Shown here piece after piece: positions 24,008 to 57,559 of a stretch of DNA of 64,000 bases. Made by a program: the position numbers and the translations under genes. Numbering within the stretch: the first letter of the stretch is position 1; each line of letters starts with the position of its first letter. The notes under the pieces are model-generated. The model searched no databases, was not told the DNA's origin, and was given only the letters and a program-made list of their open reading frames with translations. Source of the stretch: the human T2T-CHM13v2.0 reference genome, Homo sapiens; the NCBI RefSeq assembly GCF_009914755.1, contig NC_060932.1; one strand, given 5' to 3'.

Positions 24008-24036
<29 letters not shown>
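24008..24036. repeat. (CA)n microsatellite
   Basis: Direct reading. Confidence 0.95.
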
Positions 24037-37294: not shown

Positions 37295-37546
37295 CTGCTT
37301 CTCCTTCCTCCTCACCCAAATTCAGCACGATAATGCAGATGTGCTTCCGCAGCTGGCGCGTGTTGGAGAACTTCCGACAGCACTTGCTACACTCCAAGCT
37401 GCTTGGAGGCAGGCTGTTCCCTTCCTCCGGAGCCAGCGGGCTGTCCTCAGTCGGACTCACGATGTTTTCTGCCAGCTCCTCTTCTGTGCTGGACTTCTTC
37501 GTGGACCCCTTAGGCCTGCCTCTCTTCCTCTTCATGACCAAAAACT
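37295..37546 (-). CDS. ZFAT: ZFAT coding exon 3 (252 nt, phase 1-1): AT-hook KRKRGRPKGS and finger CSKCCRKFSNTRQLRKHIC
   Basis: Acceptor tttcctctgtag|AG, donor GCAG|gtaaat; GRP AT-hook core visible in ORF 37254..37610. Confidence 0.97.
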
Positions 37547-38257
37547 CTACAGAGGAAACAAGAGGGCACAATGGAATCACGTGAGACGGCAGTGCAGGGT
37601 TCACAATCACCCTCCAAGTGTGAGGATATGTTCAGGTTTCACGTTTCATTAAAAATGAAAAGTCTAAAGTGATTCCAGACATTAACAGCTGCAAACAATT
37701 ATCGTTGGTGCTAATATCATTGCATCTGTGTACTAATGGGTAATCAATTTTCTAATGTTCTGATTCAAGACCATCAGTTTATCAGCATCGCTGTACATCT
37801 TTCTCCAGCAATGCTGACAGGATTTTAAGTTGCGGCTGTCAACCCCCCGTTCACAAATCCTGCCCCTTGTTAAGCACCATTTCCACTGAAATCCAGTTCT
37901 CAGAAACTGCTTAGGGACTCCTTTGCAAAGCGTTCTCAAAGGCTGCTGAGCTTGTCATGCCCTTAATGAGTTACAAAACTATTCAGATTATTTCAAGGAG
38001 TCATAATTATTAGAGTCAAATTGTCCTGGCAAGAAAAAGAAAAAATAATTACAATCTAAAGCCACAAATTATAGCACTAAAGACAATAACAATATTTTTC
38101 CAGTTTCCTAGCGACCTAGTGATTTTCAATGGCATGATCACAGCTGCTTTAGAGCAAGTTTAAAATCATTTTACAACTTGTGTTTCTTCTCAATTAGTGT
38201 TAATTTTTAAGGCATTCATCTCCGGAATGAAGGTGGGAATTAAGAGGGGTGAGCGGG

Positions 38258-38562
38258 GGCCAGGCGCGGTGGCTCACGCCTGTAATCCCAGCACTTTGGG
38301 AGGCCGAGGTGGGCGGATCACGAGGTCAGGAGATCGAGACTATCCTGGCTAACATGGTGAAACTCTGTCTCTACTAAAAATACAAAAAAAAAAACATTAA
38401 CCAGGCGTGGTGGCGGGCACCTGTAGTCCCAGCTACTCAGGAGGCTGAGGCAGGAGAATGGCGTGAACTGGGAGGCAGAGCTTGTAGTAAGCTGAGATCA
38501 CACTACTGCACTCCAGCCTGGGCAACAGAGCGAGACTCCATCTCAAATAAAAAAAAAAAAAG
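38258..38562 (+). mobile_element. AluY-like
   Basis: cggatcacgaggtcaggagatcgagac, gagaatggcgtgaac; TSD aaga(g/t)gggtgagc. Confidence 0.92.
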
Positions 38563-39733
38563 ATGGGTGAGCAGGGCAGGGAGCAGAGCATCTCATCCAG
38601 TTGTGTGAAGGTGGAGGGGTGTGGTCTTCAACGATGAGACTTAGGAGATGTCCCTGAGCGAGACCAAGCAGAGAGCCGCCAGCAGCCTGGCTGACATCCC
38701 CAATGCCAGTCATCTGTCTGGCAGAGGAGTGGCACTTCAGCAACCCTCTTTGAACCTGAACATTGGGGTAGAGGAAGGAGTACTAGATTCTGGCACCATC
38801 TTGGGTACACGTGCATCTGTAGAATGTCTCTCAGGTCCCTTCCTGCTCTCTCTAAAGCTGTTGCTCTGCACAGTAGGACACCAGCCACTTTATCTACTGC
38901 TATTACCATGAGGACCCGTTAAGTAAGTCACTTGTGCTCACAAATCAGAGAGGGAGGCCACAGGGGCAAAGGGGAGCAGAGATGGGCAGAACAGTCTGGG
39001 GCAGAGTCTGCAGGGACACAACAGCCTGACCACAGGGAATCTGAACAAAGAAGCCTGCCTTGGTACGGGGTACCCAAGACCTCAGGGAAACCTGGCACCA
39101 GAATGAAGCAAGAGATTTCCTGGGAAAGGAGGGCCCTTGCTGGAACAGAGCTTCAACCAAACTGCAACGCCACTGGTGAGTGGGTCAGCCTTGGCTGAAA
39201 GATCCAAACCAGAGTCCTGCACTAAGGCAACCAGCGAGATTCCTGCCTTCACTCTATCTCCCTGGGGCATGGTGGGCAGGGGAGCACAAAGAAGAAGAAG
39301 GTACTTAATGATAGGAAGGCAAACCAGATAAAACAAGGGACAGAAGGCCCTGGGAGCCCTCCCTAGATTTAAACAAGGAGAAAAAAGCCTGTGTTTACAG
39401 GAGAACCAGCCTGTGTGCAAGGGAGATGGGAGGAAAGAAATACAAGGTACAGAGTAAGAAACCATTTCCCTTGGAGTCTTTAAAACTTTTCTCCTTATTC
39501 TTCTTCACAACAACGTGTACTTGCACAATCTACTGAAGCAGCAATTCATATCAGAGAAGCAGAATTAGCAGAGAGGCTACAAAACACCCACCTCGTGTCA
39601 TGTCAGCTGAGTTCCAGAAACAGGGTGCCTAAGAGTTTACTGAAGCCTGCGGCCCAGGTCTAAACCCAGTGACAGACTCTGCCATCCCGCAGACACAAGC
39701 CACTCCCCTGAAACACTCTATGAGGATGTGATT

Positions 39734-40215
39734 GTGAGTGAAGAATTAACTTTACCCAAAGAGAAGTCTGGCCTTTGCCCTTGGCTACAGGGAGGTGATT
39801 TCTAGGCCCCCGGATGTCCCTCCTGATGTCCTATGTTGTAGTTGGGAGAGAGGTAACTTTGCTCAGGACTCCATGGGTGGACCAAAAGCTCCACGTCTAG
39901 AACCTTCCCAGTCTGCAACTTTACCCACACACCTCTCTCCCTTTAACTGGCTCTCTGATTTGCATCCTTTGAGTATAATCAAATTATAATCATGAGGACA
40001 GGGCTTTCCTGAGTTGTGTGAGTTATTCTAGCAAATTATCAAAGCTGAGAGAGGCCGCAGGGACCTTCCAAATCTGTAGTAGTAAGAAAGAAGTAAAGGT
40101 GGTCCAGGAGACCCTCCAAACTTGTGGCTGGTATCAGGAGTCTTGGGCAGACTTGGTCGTCTTGCGGAGAACTGTGCCCTTAAGCTTGAGTTTGGCAAAC
40201 TTACTATTGCGGGGT
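39734..40215. mobile_element. MER21-like ERV LTR remnant
   Basis: gtctggcctttgccc...gggaggtgatttct and ctttcctgagttgtgtgagttattctagcaaattatcaaa resemble MER21-type LTRs. Confidence 0.55.
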
Positions 40216-43200
40216 AGCCAGTGTTTTCTCCACACAGACTCAATGGAGCACAGACAGCCACAGTGTTTGCACTTGCTGGAGCACAGCACAGCGTGTGGTA
40301 CAGCAGACATCGTGAGTCTCCACTCCCCCAGACTGGAGACTCCTCGAAGGCAGAGTCCCTGTCCTGATTACTTTTTATCCCCCTCGCACCTAACCTGGTG
40401 CCCTGAGCAGCAGGCAGCCAGCAAATCTGGGTGAATTAAACTGATGAGCAATGCACAATTAATTCCAAGGCAAGGAAAAAATAAAATCGGCCTGAAAGCT
40501 TTGGAAAACCTCAAACACGATGGTGACAAAACTAATCTTCCAGCTTGCTGCATCCATAATTCAGATCCTCAAGACCAATTAGCTAGCTAAAAATGAAATA
40601 TTCATGAATGAACTTGAATAATTTAAGCTCTGAAAATGAGTTGCTGCTGTCAACTACTCGCATTTTATGGCAGAGCTGAGAATCTTGGGACTGGGCAAGG
40701 AAAATCATGTAACCTCTAAATCAAAACATTTCAATGGAGTTAGCTTTAATTCCTCTTCCTCCCTCTGAATTCCTTTATTTAATCTGTCACTAAACTCTAT
40801 GGACTTTGCCCTAAAGATGTCTCTCCAGTAAATCCCCTCTCTGTTCACACAGCAACCTCACCACCCAGATGCCTGCACACGGTGTCCAGATTCCAGCCTC
40901 CTGCTCTGGGCTTTCTCTGCCTCCATCCCTCATCTGTCATTCCCTCACTCTAGAACCTTCCATTGTTCTGGATGATTTTGCCCACAACTCTCAGGCCTGG
41001 CCTTCAAGGTCCTTTAGCACGTGATCCAACCCTGCACATATGCACACACAGACACACACACCTGCACACACACACACATTCAGTGACCCCACTTCCTTCT
41101 TCCTCCCCCTTAACTGCTCAGGGCAATTTTCTAGACCTCCCCAAATATACACAGAGAATCCCCGTCTCTTTTCACTTACTTGTACTATTCTCCCAAGCTG
41201 TGACCACCTCCTTCACTACCAATCAGAGACCAAGCCCCAGTTCAAATCCTAACATGTCCGGTCCAGTTAAGACCTCAGTGCCTCCTCCATGAGGTGTCCC
41301 CAGCTAAGTGAGCAGGATGACTACCCCCACAGCTTGATGTGAATTACAGTGTGAGCCACACACACGTAGGGTGTGTATGCGCCCACACCACTCCCTGATT
41401 GTTTCGATTTTTCCCCACCTTTTATGACAAACCCTGAGGTCTGAGCTGGCCTTTTAATTCCTGGGTCCCACAGGGTCTCGAACGGAGCTGGATGTGGAGT
41501 AGATACAATTAATAAGTACACACTGATCCACTGTTTGATGATAGAAAAAGAAATATCTGGAAAAGAAGCCATTTCCTGTGTCCCCAGTTTCCAAAAGGAA
41601 GAAAGGGCTGAGCCACAGTGCCTCTTAACTCTGCTCTAAATCCACAGTTTGGGGACAACTTCCTCTTAGTCAGAAAATCATCCTTGCAGATCCAAGGCCA
41701 AAAACTGGCAAGGGGCAGAGAATCGGCCAAAGGATTACTTCTAACTCAATCAAAACACAACGTGAACACTATGAAAAAATAGCCCAACATTATCAACAAT
41801 TTAATAACGTAAGCCCTTTATTTGTGCATCACTCAAGTTTGCAAGGCACTTTCCCAGCTATTATCTCATTTTAGCCTTATAAAAATCTTAAGAGATGGAT
41901 GCAGCAAACACAACGTCCTCAATGGGAGAAGAAACAAGGGACACAACGGTTCAAGTGGCTTGGCGCATCTTCCAGAACCAGCTGCTGAGCACGCAGAACT
42001 GGAATTTGGGTTTCCTTATTCCCAGTCAAAAATGTATCTGCAGAATCACATACCCCTGAAGCATGGGTAAGAAAAGGTCAGCACTACACACTTTAATAGA
42101 GACAATCTGTGCTGTGCAGAGAATGCTGGCTTGGAGCTGGACCGACCTGGGTTCAAATCTCCCCTGAGCCTCCGTTTCCAATGCGAAAAATAAACACAAA
42201 ACTGCCTCTATTTTATAGAGTCACTACTGATAAAAGCAATCCATTACAATGCTGGGCACAGAACTCAGGAGATGACTGATAAATGGCAACTGTTTAATAT
42301 TATGGCCATAGTCATGAAGATTCTGACTTAGAATATCTCTTTTAAGAAACTATTATCCTCCCACCTGGTCCACAGTTAGATAATGTGATTTCTTGATGTA
42401 CATGCATTCTCATTCATTCTGACTCAATACGCATTTTTTCCTTGAGTTCTTCATTTTAAAATAGCTCTCACACCAGGAAATCCAATGTAGAATTAAAGGC
42501 ACACAAATTTTATTATGCCTAAAACCCTGGATACGGCCAGCTTCCCAGCACTCGCACAGGGCAGCTCAATCTCTAATCACACCAACTCAAGAATTTTGGA
42601 AAATCCTGAAAGACTAACATTTTAAGGCCCTGACAGTCAATCTCCCTGACGTTTATTTCCAAAGCTCAGGAAGCAATAGGAGAGACAATGAATTATTTAT
42701 CATAAATAGGGGAACACAAGCCTCTTAGGTTTATGAGGAATGCAACATCCCCTTTGCAGGGACAGACTGCATCCTGTTCCACAATGCCAGGCACCAGGGA
42801 GGCTGAAGGCATCCCAAGCCTGCTCCTTGTACTTTTACCAGCCATATCGTGGAAATGCCACGTAAATAATGGTGATAACTAATCATTATTAAGCACATAT
42901 ATCTCAGGCACCATGCTAAGCACTTCACATGCACGTCCTCATTTAATCCCCAAGGGAGGCATTAGTATGATCCCCATCATATAGTAGAGGTCACTGAGGC
43001 TTAAGAAGATTAACTTATTTGCTCCAAGGTCAGGGAATTAATAAATGGCAGAATCAGGAATTGAATACAGACCTGTTTGCCTCAAAGTCAGTGAACTTCA
43101 TACCCATGTCATAGCAAGTCCTTTGGACAGTTCAATTAATATCTAAGCACAGAAATAATATACTTTGACCTCTTCACTAAGTTCTGCAGGAAAATGACGA

Positions 43201-44234
43201 TAGTCTCATGCAGTGACAAGCTTCAGTGTGATCCCACTCCCTGGGCTGGAAAGTACACGGATGTAAGGTACAGGAGGGTACAATGTCTAACAGGCAGTCA
43301 CTATGGACTAAGGCATCATGTATGAACATGCACTTGTCTCAGAACCTATGAAAAAGGTCAGTATCTTATCTCTCTTTGACAGGTGACAAAAGTCACAGCC
43401 ATGCCACTTGTCTAAGTCCCCAGCAGAGCCTCAAGGCTGTGGTGCAGGCTGTACCCTGTGTGAGGCGGTGATTGAAGACTTACCAGGGCCAAATTCCACT
43501 AGCCAAGCTGTGTGCTCCGGCACTGGCTGCATCAGCCCTGAGCACGTTTTATGTTTGTTCACCCAGAAACAGCTCCTGTTACTAGCTCATCCCCTCAGAA
43601 TGGGGGCGCCTTTTGTAATCTGCACAAAGGTCCCTATGTGCCAGCCAAGGCTCCAGCAATCACATGAAAGCTCCAGGAATGGAGCCTAAGTCTGATTCCA
43701 AGACGTGTGCCCTTTCCACTACACTGCGCTGCTGACCAGGGCAGATCAGAGTGCTCAACATTCGTACATGCACTCAGAATGACTGGATTTGTGGTAAATG
43801 CCCAGAAGAGACAACATACAGATTTAAACATAGACATCAACTTCCCCTGGGAAGCCTCCTTTTACCCTCACATTAGAGGACGTCTTTAGCAGCCTGAACT
43901 TAACCGCGCAGAGGCACTCGCCCTGCTGCACTGAAACTGCCTTTTTGCCTATTTGCCATTCACCAGCTAGGGGGCCAGAGTCAACAGCCTGTGGGCCCCT
44001 CCTGCAGCCCCAGCACCTAGCACAGCACCCAGACATACAGCAGGCACCCAACAAACAGTTAATGACTAAAGAGATGGAAAGGGGGAGGGGAGAGGAGAGG
44101 AAAGATAAGAAAGGAAGAATTCCTGCAGAGGGTCTGAAATCAGAGAGAAAATGGGAGAGCCAAAACGAGGCTCTCGGGAGACCCATGTACATTCTTCCTC
44201 AATTGCCCCAGCCTCCATCAGGATAAATGAATGC

Positions 44235-44837
44235 ATGCGTGTGCACACACACTCTCACACACACATGCTCATACACACCCATATACAAAATCATACACGT
44301 GCACACACATATCCATATACACAATCATACACACATACACAAGCACCTATACAACCACACACACATGCACACTCACACACGTACACAACCACATACACAA
44401 CCCATGTACACAACCACATACACATGTGCACACTCCCAAATGTACCGTATACACAATCTCACACACAAACGTGCACTTACACATGTGCCCACAACCACAC
44501 ACACGTGCACTTACACATATGCCCACGACACACAGCACACTCACAAACGTGCCCATATTCACAATCACACACACATGTATACTCACAATGTGCCCAGATA
44601 TGCAATCACACACATGCACACTCGCATGCGCACATATACAGTATCACACACGTGCACACTCACACACCATCTATATACACAATCACACAACGTGCACACT
44701 CAAACGTGCCTATATACACAATCACATGCACACACACAAACACACCCATATACACACATACCTGTGTACTCACAAACACACCCATACACATACACACAGA
44801 GATATGATCACACACACGCACATGGGATCACACACAC
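44235..44837. repeat. About 600-bp degenerate (CA)n tract, UG-rich on the ZFAT pre-mRNA
   Basis: Direct reading; produces spurious His/Thr-rich ORFs in all three + frames. Confidence 0.95.
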
Positions 44838-45599
44838 GAGAATGAGCTTGGTCCATTAGGAAATTTCTTCTTGGATCACAGCCAGAGGTTTGATGAGGAA
44901 AAGAGAAGGAAAATGAAAGGTCTTTCTGCAGACCACTTCCTACATGAGCAAAAAAGATTAAAAGGCTATAAAATAAACCAGAGGATTTCAGTGGCTTCAC
45001 GTTATAACGAGAGACCAAAATAATAAATCAATTACTACTCAGTTAAAGGTTTAATTAAACCATTTCAAGTAGCTCTCAATTTAAAATGAATTGTGAAGGT
45101 TAAACCTGAATGAAAATCATTAGAGAGAAACTAAGCCTCTACAAGCCTCAAATTTTATGAACTTTCACAAAGAGAAAAAGAAAGACTTGAAGTTCATAAT
45201 GAAAGACTTTTTAAAATTTTTTGTCATGTTAAGAGGCTGAGTTTAACTAAGGAATTCATGCTTTTTAAAATTAAACTACACAGACAAAAGTAGTTTAGTA
45301 TACACACACACACAAAAAAGAAAACACACGGAAGAAGAATTTGTCAAAAGTAAATTATTTAATAAAAGAAAATAATTTATAAAAGTAGGCTCAATGATAA
45401 GAATTTGATTATTCCTGGACTACCACCATAACATGCAAATAACATCAAATCAGCTGGGCCTAAATCCCTCCCTCTCACTTACTATATAGGTAATCTTGAA
45501 CATGCTGTTTTAACTCCTCTGAGTCTCTAAGCCACATATTCCTCAATTATAAAATCTGGGCATCAGCCAGGAAATAGATGTGAATAACCCTATAAACCA

Positions 45600-48008
<2,409 letters not shown>

Positions 48009-48980
48009 AAAGAGAGAGAAGGATCTGAAAGATAAAAGAACTATCTCAAATCAATAGCCTACCCTTTCCAACCTAAGAAAAAAAAACAGAAGCAAGCTAA
48101 ATCCAATACAAGCAGAAGGACAGAAATAATAATGCCTAGAATGGAAAGAGATTATATAAAATATAGAAAAAGAAAAGAGAAAATCAACAAAACCAATGTT
48201 TTTCAAAGATTAAGAAAATGCCAAACCTTCAGCTAAACTTACCAAGAAAAAATAGCAAGACCTAATTTGTTAAAATCAATAATGAAAGGGAGAACATTAC
48301 CATTTAATCTTACAAAAATCAAAATAATTATTAGAGAATATTAAGAACAATTATATGTCAACAAATTAGACAATCTAGACAAAATGGAAAATTCCCTAGA
48401 AAGACAAACTACTGAACCTAATTCAAAAATAGCAAAGATGCATACACCTATAACAAGAGATTGAATCAGTGAAAAAATAAAAAGCCCAGGACCAAATAGT
48501 CTCACTGGTGAATTCTACCAAATGTTTAAAGAAGAATTAACACCAATACTTAAAAATTTTTCCAAAAAATAGAAGAGGAGGGAACACTTCTCAAGTCATG
48601 CTATGAGGCCACTATTACCCTGAAACCAAAACCAAAGACATCAAAGACTCTAGACCAATATCTCTTATGAATATAAATGCAAATATGTTTAACAAAATAC
48701 TAGGAAACTGAATCCAGCAGCACAGCAAAAGGATTATGCAACATGACCAAATGAGATCTATCCAAAAGTTACAAGGGTGATGCATCCTGGCATGTAAAAA
48801 CATCAGTGTAATATACCATATTAATACAACAAATAAGAAAAAAAACCACATGGTCATCTCAACAAACTCAGAAAAAACATCTGACAAAATCCAACACCAT
48901 TTTATGATTTAAAAAATAAACAACACTCAACAAACCAAGAATAAAAAGAGCTTCCTTAACCTAATGAAGAACATCTATCT

Positions 48981-48982
<2 letters not shown>

Positions 48983-49022
<40 letters not shown>
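48983..49022. repeat. (CA)n microsatellite within L1
   Basis: Direct reading. Confidence 0.95.
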
Positions 49023-49024
<2 letters not shown>

Positions 49025-57382: not shown

Positions 57383-57559
57383 CATCTCCGGTTTTGCTTG
57401 AGTTGGGGGGTTCAGGTGTACTCAGAGGCCTAAGGGGAATAATAATCTCATCAACATTAACCCCTTCTTCCATGTGCTTCTCTGAAACGTGGGAGAGGAG
57501 TTCCGACTGATTTGGTGAGAAGAGGTTACAACATTTACACATAAAGATGGCCGTGTTTT
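57383..57559 (-). CDS. ZFAT: ZFAT coding exon 2 (177 nt, phase 1-1): (E)NTAIFMCKCCNLFSPNQSELLSHVSEKHMEEG...SKTGD, first C2H2-type finger; contains an in-frame Met usable as an alternative start
   Basis: Acceptor ttttccttacag|AAAACACG and donor GATG|gtaagg read on the minus strand; translation matches the ZFAT N-terminus I recognise; in frame with the next exon. Confidence 0.97.

What the first reader, a model, noticed from the sequence alone, without database searches (positions are those of the whole stretch)
44235..44965. Candidate TDP-43-repressed poison exon running into a 600-nt UG tract (intron 2)
Seen on the minus strand: a good acceptor tttaatcttttttgctcatgtag|GAAG (exon start 44939) and a strong donor CAG|gtatgt inside the repeat (exon end 44762), defining a 178-nt exon. 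In the ZFAT frame it reads GSGLQKDLSFSF...CVWVCL then TGA (44770-44772). A weak donor CTC|gtgtgt at 44838 would instead give a 102-nt in-frame insert of 34 aa. About 500 nt of UG repeats follow. Established: TDP-43 binds UG repeats and represses adjacent cryptic exons. Inference: TDP-43 loss would divert ZFAT to NMD or create a neo-peptide.
Basis: partly seen in the sequence, partly recalled or inferred. Interest (0 to 1): 0.7.

Follow-up and report, generated by a model that had tools for sequence, protein, structure and literature searches.

The report
Catalogued TDP-43 cryptic exon in ZFAT

Summary
These are the acceptor before 44939, the donors after 44762 and 44838, the in-frame TGA at 44772-44770, and a 611-nt tract that is 75% G+U.

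Published RNA-seq tables already hold a TDP-43-dependent cryptic exon here. Brown 2022 lists a novel-donor junction, chr8:134637712-134645005 (hg38). Its usage rises from 0.008 to 0.271 on TDP-43 knockdown in iPSC cortical neurons. Brown 2025 lists that junction and its partner, chr8:134645052-134657561, in 3-4 knockdown datasets. The donor junction is flagged 'Dark cryptic' under UPF1 knockdown, and both junctions are 'Never observed' post-mortem.

The exon is therefore 48 nt. The only AG|48 nt|GT fit near the right offset is window 44869-44822 on the minus strand.

In the ZFAT frame the exon reads E-E-I-S and then TAA (44858-44856). Its donor sits inside a 596-nt cluster of 147 TDP-43-type hexamers, the longest cluster in the window.

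Verdict: the idea is right, the exon boundaries are wrong, and the event is already catalogued. Direct TDP-43 binding is inferred, not shown.

The parts
44822..44869 (-). 48-nt TDP-43-repressed cryptic exon. It is the published hg38 chr8:134645005-134645052 mapped onto this window.
   Evidence: It is the only AG|48 nt|GT fit with an hg38-minus-window offset (134600183) close to those of the flanking exons (134600166 and 134600178).
44870..44871 (-). Acceptor AG of the cryptic exon (ctggctgtgatccaag|AAG). The pyrimidine tract is weak (10 of 16) and position -3 is A. A second AG 3 nt downstream (exon start 44866) makes a tandem acceptor.
44820..44821 (-). Donor GT of the cryptic exon (CAT|gtgcgt, 5 of 7 consensus matches). 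It is the first GT with at least 5 of 7 matches downstream of the acceptor, and it lies inside TDP-43-type hexamers.
44856..44858 (-). TAA premature stop in the ZFAT frame, the fifth codon after the exon 2 junction (E-E-I-S-stop).
44894..44894 (-). Candidate branch-point A (CTCAT), 25 nt before the exon start, with no AG between it and the acceptor.
   Evidence: (motif match only, an inference) and the sequence.
44243..44838 (-). 596-nt cluster of TDP-43-type hexamers: 80 YG, 56 YA and 11 AA, covering 60% of the cluster. It starts 17 nt before the donor and runs downstream. It is the presumed TDP-43 binding region.
   Evidence: using the hexamer sets given in the methods of PMC12667841. The tract is degenerate, with 12-39-nt periods.
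44762..44939 (-). The motifs are present, but neither form appears in the catalogues searched.
57383..57559 (-). Upstream ZFAT coding exon, the partner of the cryptic acceptor junction. It leaves 1 nt of a codon.
   Evidence: Hub annotation.
37295..37546 (-). Downstream ZFAT coding exon (hg38 chr8:134637461-134637712), the target exon of the MAJIQ splicing event.
   Evidence: Hub annotation.

Best explanation
This is a TDP-43-repressed cryptic cassette exon of ZFAT: 48 nt, at window 44869-44822 on the minus strand. It lies between coding exons 57383-57559 and 37295-37546.

Its weak donor (CAU|gugcgu) and the last 17 nt of the exon lie inside a 596-nt degenerate GU-rich tract. That tract is dense in the UG-like hexamers that TDP-43 prefers.

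With normal nuclear TDP-43, protein loaded along this cluster hides the donor, and probably the many donor-like GU sites further in. The exon is then skipped (usage about 0.01). When TDP-43 is depleted the donor is exposed and about a quarter of junction reads use the exon.

The exon brings a TAA stop four codons in. The transcript would therefore encode only the first ~65 residues of ZFAT plus EEIS, and it is a substrate for nonsense-mediated decay.

What is shown, from published tables: the two junctions, their dependence on TDP-43 knockdown in 3-4 iPSC-neuron datasets, and the UPF1-knockdown flag.

What is shown here: the mapping, the stop codon, and the motif cluster around the donor.

What is inferred: that TDP-43 binds this tract directly and acts by masking the donor, and that the exon is a non-adaptive by-product of a minisatellite rather than a regulated switch.
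For: 1. Brown 2022 (PMC8891020), supplementary files 2 and 6. For the splicing event on exon chr8:134637461-134637712, the annotated junction falls from 0.992 to 0.729. The novel-donor junction 134637712-134645005 rises from 0.008 to 0.271, with probability 0.98, and is flagged cryptic_junction TRUE. The main text defines cryptic splicing as junctions under 5% in controls, with 4 controls against 3 knockdowns.

2. Brown 2025 (PMC12667841), supplementary file 2. The same donor junction is listed in Brown-i3Cortical, Seddighi-i3Cortical, Vargas-i3LMN and UPF1-i3Cortical, and the 'UPF1 KD NMDi' column reads 'Dark cryptic'. The acceptor junction 134645052-134657561 is listed in three datasets. [quoted passage not shown]

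3. Mapping. Only one AG|48|GT pair lies near the expected offset, at 44869-44822. No AG acceptor exists in 44874-44886, which is where strictly intermediate offsets would place one.

4. The stop TAA at 44858-44856 is in frame.

5. A 596-nt cluster of 147 hexamers spans the donor. Density is 241 per kb against 12.4 per kb in the rest of the intron, and it is the longest cluster in the window.

6. A 2026 review (PMC13343711, passages read) says predicted TDP-43 sites often lie close to the 3' end of cryptic exons and act by steric hindrance. Brown 2025 reports TDP-43 CLIP enrichment inside cryptic exons and around their donors. Hallegger 2021 reports that regions over 100 nt rich in YG/YA motifs are bound in a condensation-dependent way.
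Against: No CLIP data over this tract could be seen. The Hallegger table of binding-region coordinates is not held, so direct binding is untested.

The tract has no long pure UG run (maximum 10 nt). A perfect 41-nt (UG)n at 48983-49023 in the same intron has no catalogued cryptic exon beside it.

ZFAT mRNA rises slightly on knockdown (log2FC +0.33, padj 0.0048), so there is no net 'poisoning' at gene level.

Both junctions are 'Never observed' in the post-mortem cohorts, at 0 samples. Neither has a TDP-43 sensitivity value for the SH-SY5Y or SK-N-BE(2) lines.

No ZFAT entry was found in the files searched for Ma 2022 (11 of 17 files) or Sinha 2025 (3 of 4 files).

The mapping rests on the T2T sequence alone, because hg38 could not be read. 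It implies that hg38 is 17 nt longer than T2T below the exon and 5 nt shorter above it.
Confidence: 0.75

Rival explanations
1. One reading: the TDP-43-regulated exon is the 178-nt exon 44939-44762 (stop at TGA), or the 102-nt in-frame exon 44939-44838 giving a 34-aa insert.
For: The motifs exist, and on a crude consensus count they look stronger than the used ones: acceptor pyrimidines 12 of 16 against 10 of 16, and donor 6 of 7 against 5 of 7. Before the acceptor junction was known, a simple coordinate shift put the published donor (37546+7293 = 44839) one base from the weak donor at 44838.
Against: The published exon is 48 nt. No junction starting 134645xxx other than ...005 and ...052 is in the Brown 2025 catalogue, and only 4 distinct ZFAT junctions are listed. 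No 48-nt exon can start at 44939.
Confidence: 0.04
2. The exon is induced by TDP-43 loss only indirectly, for example through another splicing factor that changes after knockdown. On this view the neighbouring GU tract is a coincidence, or is bound by other GU-binding proteins.
For: No CLIP evidence was seen here. The review notes that TDP-43 targets include other RNA-binding proteins such as ELAVL3, which could create secondary cryptic exons. The event is listed only for iPSC-neuron datasets.
Against: The donor lies inside the longest TDP-43-motif cluster of the 64-kb window, about 19 times denser than the rest of the intron. This is exactly the arrangement reported for direct targets.
Confidence: 0.13
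3. The mapping to 44869-44822 is wrong. On this view hg38 and T2T differ inside the repeat, so the published exon corresponds to other bases or does not exist on the T2T haplotype.
For: hg38 could not be read. The implied offsets (166, then 183, then 178) are not monotonic. The tract has 34-39-nt periods that could vary in copy number.
Against: The fit is exact and unique in both length and splice dinucleotides. All other 48-nt AG...GT pairs imply offsets at least 249 nt away. Lengths of 44-52 nt give only variants that share the 44869 or 44866 acceptor, plus two outliers. The non-repeat part of the exon is single-copy in the T2T genome search.
Confidence: 0.06

Closest known systems
UNC13A cryptic exon (TDP-43-repressed, NMD-sensitive)
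   Same: It is an intronic cassette exon, silent in controls and included on TDP-43 knockdown in the same i3Neuron dataset. It introduces a premature stop, and NMD inhibition raises its detection (Brown 2022 passages; Brown 2025 passages).
   Different: UNC13A mRNA and protein fall on knockdown and the exon is found in patient tissue. ZFAT mRNA does not fall and its junctions were never seen post-mortem. No disease-risk SNPs are known here from these calls.
ATG4B and GPSM2 cryptic exons flanked by UG repeats (Ling 2015)
   Same: Nonconserved intronic exons next to UG repeats, repressed by TDP-43. ATG4B is named as a known NMD target in Brown 2025. The UG-repeat adjacency in Ling 2015 is recalled; that paper was not read here.
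   Different: Here the UG element is a 596-nt degenerate minisatellite-like cluster, not a clean (UG)n microsatellite.
In-frame cryptic exons that give neo-peptides (HDGFL2, KCNQ2)
   Different: The ZFAT exon has an in-frame TAA, so no internal neo-peptide is made. HDGFL2 and KCNQ2 are classed as NMD-insensitive.
Condensation-dependent TDP-43 binding regions (Hallegger 2021)
   Same: The cluster is over 100 nt and dominated by YG- and YA-containing [UG]n hexamers (136 of 147), which matches the class described.
   Different: Membership needs iCLIP counts with wild-type and condensation-deficient TDP-43. None could be seen for this locus.

Membership tests
TDP-43-repressed cryptic exon | Junction usage under 5% in controls and induced by TDP-43 depletion | tested here: met
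   Read from published tables, not from raw reads. Usage rises from 0.008 to 0.271 and the junction is flagged cryptic. It is listed in 3-4 knockdown datasets.
TDP-43-repressed cryptic exon | Both flanking junctions detected, defining a cassette exon that is not annotated | tested here: met
   Junctions 134637712-134645005 and 134645052-134657561. The hub annotation lists no exon at 44822-44869.
TDP-43-repressed cryptic exon | UG/GU-rich TDP-43 motifs close to the cryptic splice sites | tested here: met
   A 596-nt cluster of 147 hexamers starts 17 nt before the donor. G+U content is about 4.9 sd above the window mean.
TDP-43-repressed cryptic exon | Direct TDP-43 binding at the site (CLIP) | not testable with these tools
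   The Hallegger 2021 binding-region table is not held; the 2 small files that are held have no ZFAT. POSTAR3 and ENCODE are not available.
TDP-43-repressed cryptic exon | Not conserved between species | not testable with these tools
   No other vertebrate genomes are on hand. The non-repeat part of the exon is single-copy in T2T.
TDP-43-repressed cryptic exon | Seen in tissue with TDP-43 pathology (needed for disease relevance, not for membership) | tested here: not met
   Group 'Never observed', 0 samples with at least 2 junction reads.
Poison (NMD-triggering) exon | In-frame premature stop upstream of further exon junctions | tested here: met
   TAA at 44858-44856. At least five coding exons follow within the window (hub annotation).
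Poison (NMD-triggering) exon | Isoform rises when NMD is blocked | tested here: inconclusive
   The donor junction is labelled 'Dark cryptic' in the UPF1-knockdown column, while the CHX and SMG1i columns are blank. The same junction is visible without NMD block in three other datasets.
Poison (NMD-triggering) exon | Host mRNA falls when the exon is included | tested here: not met
   ZFAT log2FC +0.33, padj 0.0048, labelled upregulated. Ribosome footprints show no significant change.

The most novel reading that the evidence does not exclude
The 596-nt GU-rich minisatellite may be a condensation-type TDP-43 landing pad whose length varies between people. hg38 and T2T seem to differ by 17 nt below the exon. 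That variation could set how easily the ZFAT stop-exon escapes repression. It would tie TDP-43 dosage to the level of a transcription factor that matters mainly in lymphocytes and placenta (that role is recalled, not taken from a call). It might also contribute to trait associations at ZFAT.
Probability: 0.05. Interest if true: 0.5.

Novelty: already known. Interest (0 to 1): 0.3.

Why it matters
It shows that reading raw sequence can point to a real TDP-43 cryptic exon: the right intron, the right tract and the right consequence. It also shows that picking splice sites by how closely they match the consensus chose the wrong ones.

For biology the gain is small. The event already sits in two published supplementary tables. 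No paper holding 'ZFAT' and 'TDP-43' in its text discusses it (4 papers, judged from titles and abstract starts only). It is not seen in patient tissue and it does not lower ZFAT mRNA in the knockdown model.

The useful additions here are:
- T2T coordinates for the exon;
- the stop codon;
- the finding that the donor lies inside an unusually long degenerate UG cluster.

Tried and rejected
1. This was rejected once the acceptor junction showed the exon is 48 nt.

2. Supplements with no ZFAT entry:
- Ma 2022: 11 of 17 files searched, the rest not fetched or unreadable.
- Sinha 2025: 3 of 4 files.
- Cao & Scotter 2022: one 786-character file.
- Hallegger 2021: 2 small files, with the binding-region table not held.

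3. The supplement of the Seddighi preprint could not be read. The journal version was not found by PubMed id. Those files may hold the exon's reading-frame class.

4. Full-text searches found 0 papers with 'ZFAT' + 'cryptic exon' + 'TDP-43', and 4 with 'ZFAT' + 'TDP-43'. None of the 4 looks relevant by title and abstract start, and they were not read.

6. MaxEntScan, SpliceAI and Pangolin are not available. I used only a count of matches to MAG|GTRAGT and a pyrimidine count. These are crude, and the consensus is recalled rather than taken from a call.

7. The window file is not soft-masked, so it says nothing about repeat class.

Full report
**Observation.**
- the acceptor ...tgctcatgtag|GAAG, with first exon base 44939;
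- the donor CAG|gtatgt, with last exon base 44762, giving 178 nt;
- the weak donor CTC|gtgtgt after 44838, giving 102 nt;
- TGA at 44772-44770.

The upstream coding exon 57383-57559 is open only in frame 2 and leaves one base over.

The 'UG tract' (44235-44845, 611 nt) is 74.6% G+T, but it is not a clean repeat. The longest pure TG run is 10 nt. Tandem Repeats Finder reports overlapping periods of 12-39 nt at 64-88% match.

**Is it more than chance?**
- The tract is. It is the most G+U-rich 600-nt stretch of the window on the ZFAT strand, at 0.747 against a mean of 0.538 and sd of 0.043. It carries UGUGUG/GUGUGU hexamers at 103 per kb, against 5.0 per kb in the rest of the intron.
- The splice-site pair is not. 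I used a crude count of matches to the recalled donor consensus plus pyrimidines at -20 to -5. They are built on two donors, 44762 and 47912.

**What published data show.** No paper in the library has 'ZFAT', 'cryptic exon' and 'TDP-43' together in its text. The 4 papers with 'ZFAT' and 'TDP-43' look unrelated by title and abstract start. The supplementary tables do list the locus.
- *Brown et al. 2022* (PMC8891020; files 2 and 6; CRISPRi TDP-43 knockdown in iPSC cortical-like neurons; 4 controls against 3 knockdowns). The tables report a splicing event on exon chr8:134637461-134637712, which is window exon 37295-37546. The annotated junction to 134657561 falls from 0.992 to 0.729. A novel-donor junction, 134637712-134645005, rises from 0.008 to 0.271 and is flagged as cryptic.
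- All 17 readable files of that paper were searched in the end. ZFAT occurs in 5 of them. ZFAT mRNA is slightly up (log2FC +0.33, padj 0.0048), and ribosome footprints are unchanged.
- *Brown et al. 2025 preprint* (PMC12667841; file 2). It has 10 ZFAT rows covering 4 distinct junctions, two of them in this intron.
- The junction 134637712-134645005 is listed for Brown-i3Cortical, Seddighi-i3Cortical, Vargas-i3LMN and UPF1-i3Cortical. Its 'UPF1 KD NMDi' column reads 'Dark cryptic'.
- The junction 134645052-134657561 is listed for the first three datasets only.
- Both are in the group 'Never observed' post-mortem, with 0 samples.

**Mapping to the window.** The two junctions define a 48-nt exon, hg38 134645005-134645052. 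The hg38-minus-window offset is 134600166 at exon 37295-37546 and 134600178 at 57383.
- Among all AG|48 nt|GT (or GC) pairs between 44400 and 45400, only 44869-44822 has a nearby offset (134600183). The other four pairs are at least 249 nt off.
- Trying lengths of 44-52 nt gives only variants on the same 44869 or 44866 acceptor, plus two outliers.
- No AG acceptor exists at 44874-44886, where strictly intermediate offsets would need one.
- I could not read hg38. The mapping is therefore the most parsimonious one, not a proven one. It implies that hg38 is 17 nt longer than T2T between exon 37546 and the cryptic donor, and 5 nt shorter above the exon.
- The non-repeat part of the exon is single-copy in the T2T genome search.

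**Anatomy of the real exon.**
- The acceptor is ctggctgtgatccaag|AAG. It has 10 of 16 pyrimidines and an A at -3, and a second AG lies 3 nt further on.
- A CTCAT branch-point-like motif has its A at 44894, 25 nt upstream. This is a motif match only.
- The donor is CAT|gtgcgt, with 5 of 7 consensus matches. It is the first GT at that level downstream of the acceptor.
- Joined to exon 57383-57559, the exon reads E-E-I-S and then TAA at 44858-44856.
- The exon length is a multiple of three, but the exon still truncates the protein.
At that lower level the intron holds 176 AG...GT pairs. Context, not consensus match, therefore marks this exon.

**Mechanism.** I used the hexamer sets printed in the methods of Brown 2025 (YG, YA and AA classes) and joined hits separated by 30 nt or less.
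- The tract forms one cluster, 44838-44243. It is 596 nt with 147 hexamers (80 YG, 56 YA, 11 AA) and 60% coverage.
- The next longest cluster in the whole window is 105 nt. Density is 241 per kb against 12.4 per kb in the rest of the intron.
- The cluster begins 17 nt before the donor, and the donor GU lies within its motifs.
- The tract also holds 11 of the intron's 47 GT sites with at least 5 of 7 donor matches.
- Passages read in a 2026 review say TDP-43 sites often lie near the 3' end of cryptic exons and block splice-site recognition sterically.
- Brown 2025 reports CLIP enrichment inside cryptic exons and around their donors. It also reports that interrupted UG tracts downstream of the donor typify 'late-responsive' events.
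- Hallegger 2021 assigns regions over 100 nt rich in YG/YA motifs to condensation-dependent binding.

My reading is as follows. TDP-43 coats this cluster and hides the donor. Loss of TDP-43 exposes the donor. The resulting transcript carries a stop and is at least partly removed by NMD. Direct binding is inferred, because the table that could have shown it is not held.

**Points against, or limits.**
- There is no gene-level drop in ZFAT mRNA.
- The junctions were never seen in patient tissue.
- Both rows are blank in the SH-SY5Y and SK-N-BE(2) sensitivity columns.
- The event is absent from the files searched for Ma 2022 (11 of 17) and Sinha 2025 (3 of 4).
- A perfect 41-nt UG run at 48983-49023 in the same intron has no catalogued exon beside it.
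- The Seddighi supplements could not be read.

**Verdict.** The event is already catalogued, though not discussed in print as far as searches show. I rate it as already known, with modest interest.

Noticed in passing
window 48983-49023 and 24008-24036 (minus strand): There are pure (TG)n runs of 41 nt (same intron) and 29 nt (next intron). These are cleaner TDP-43 sites than the tract, yet the Brown 2025 catalogue lists no ZFAT junction near the 41-nt run.
   Followed up: partly
window 47912-48135 (minus strand): A donor-like site after 47912 (6 of 7 consensus matches) pairs with four good acceptors (47998, 48024, 48072, 48135).
   Followed up: no
window 39592-39694 (minus strand): The exon listed for other ZFAT transcripts has no AG before 39694, so it looks like an alternative first exon rather than a cassette exon.
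   Followed up: no
window 44866-44871 (minus strand): There is a tandem acceptor, AAG|AAG. Using the second AG would give a 45-nt exon with the same TAA stop still in frame.
   Followed up: partly
window 44235-44845 (minus strand): The tract is rich in donor-like sites. It holds 11 of the intron's 47 GT sites with at least 5 of 7 matches, and GTGAGT occurs 5 times against 2 in the rest of the intron. These could act as decoy or alternative cryptic donors.
   Followed up: no
hg38 chr8:134590355-134599730 and chr8:134599862-134600436 (at or below the low end of the window): Two further ZFAT junctions are in the Brown 2025 catalogue, from Vargas-i3LMN and Brown-SKNBE2. They are seen in up to 59% of control tissue samples (from 2% to 59% depending on junction and cohort), so they are not specific to TDP-43 pathology.
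   Followed up: no
window 37546-44822: The mapping implies that hg38 carries 17 nt more than T2T between the downstream exon and the cryptic donor. This may be a length difference in the GU-rich minisatellite. It is an inference from coordinates only.
   Followed up: no
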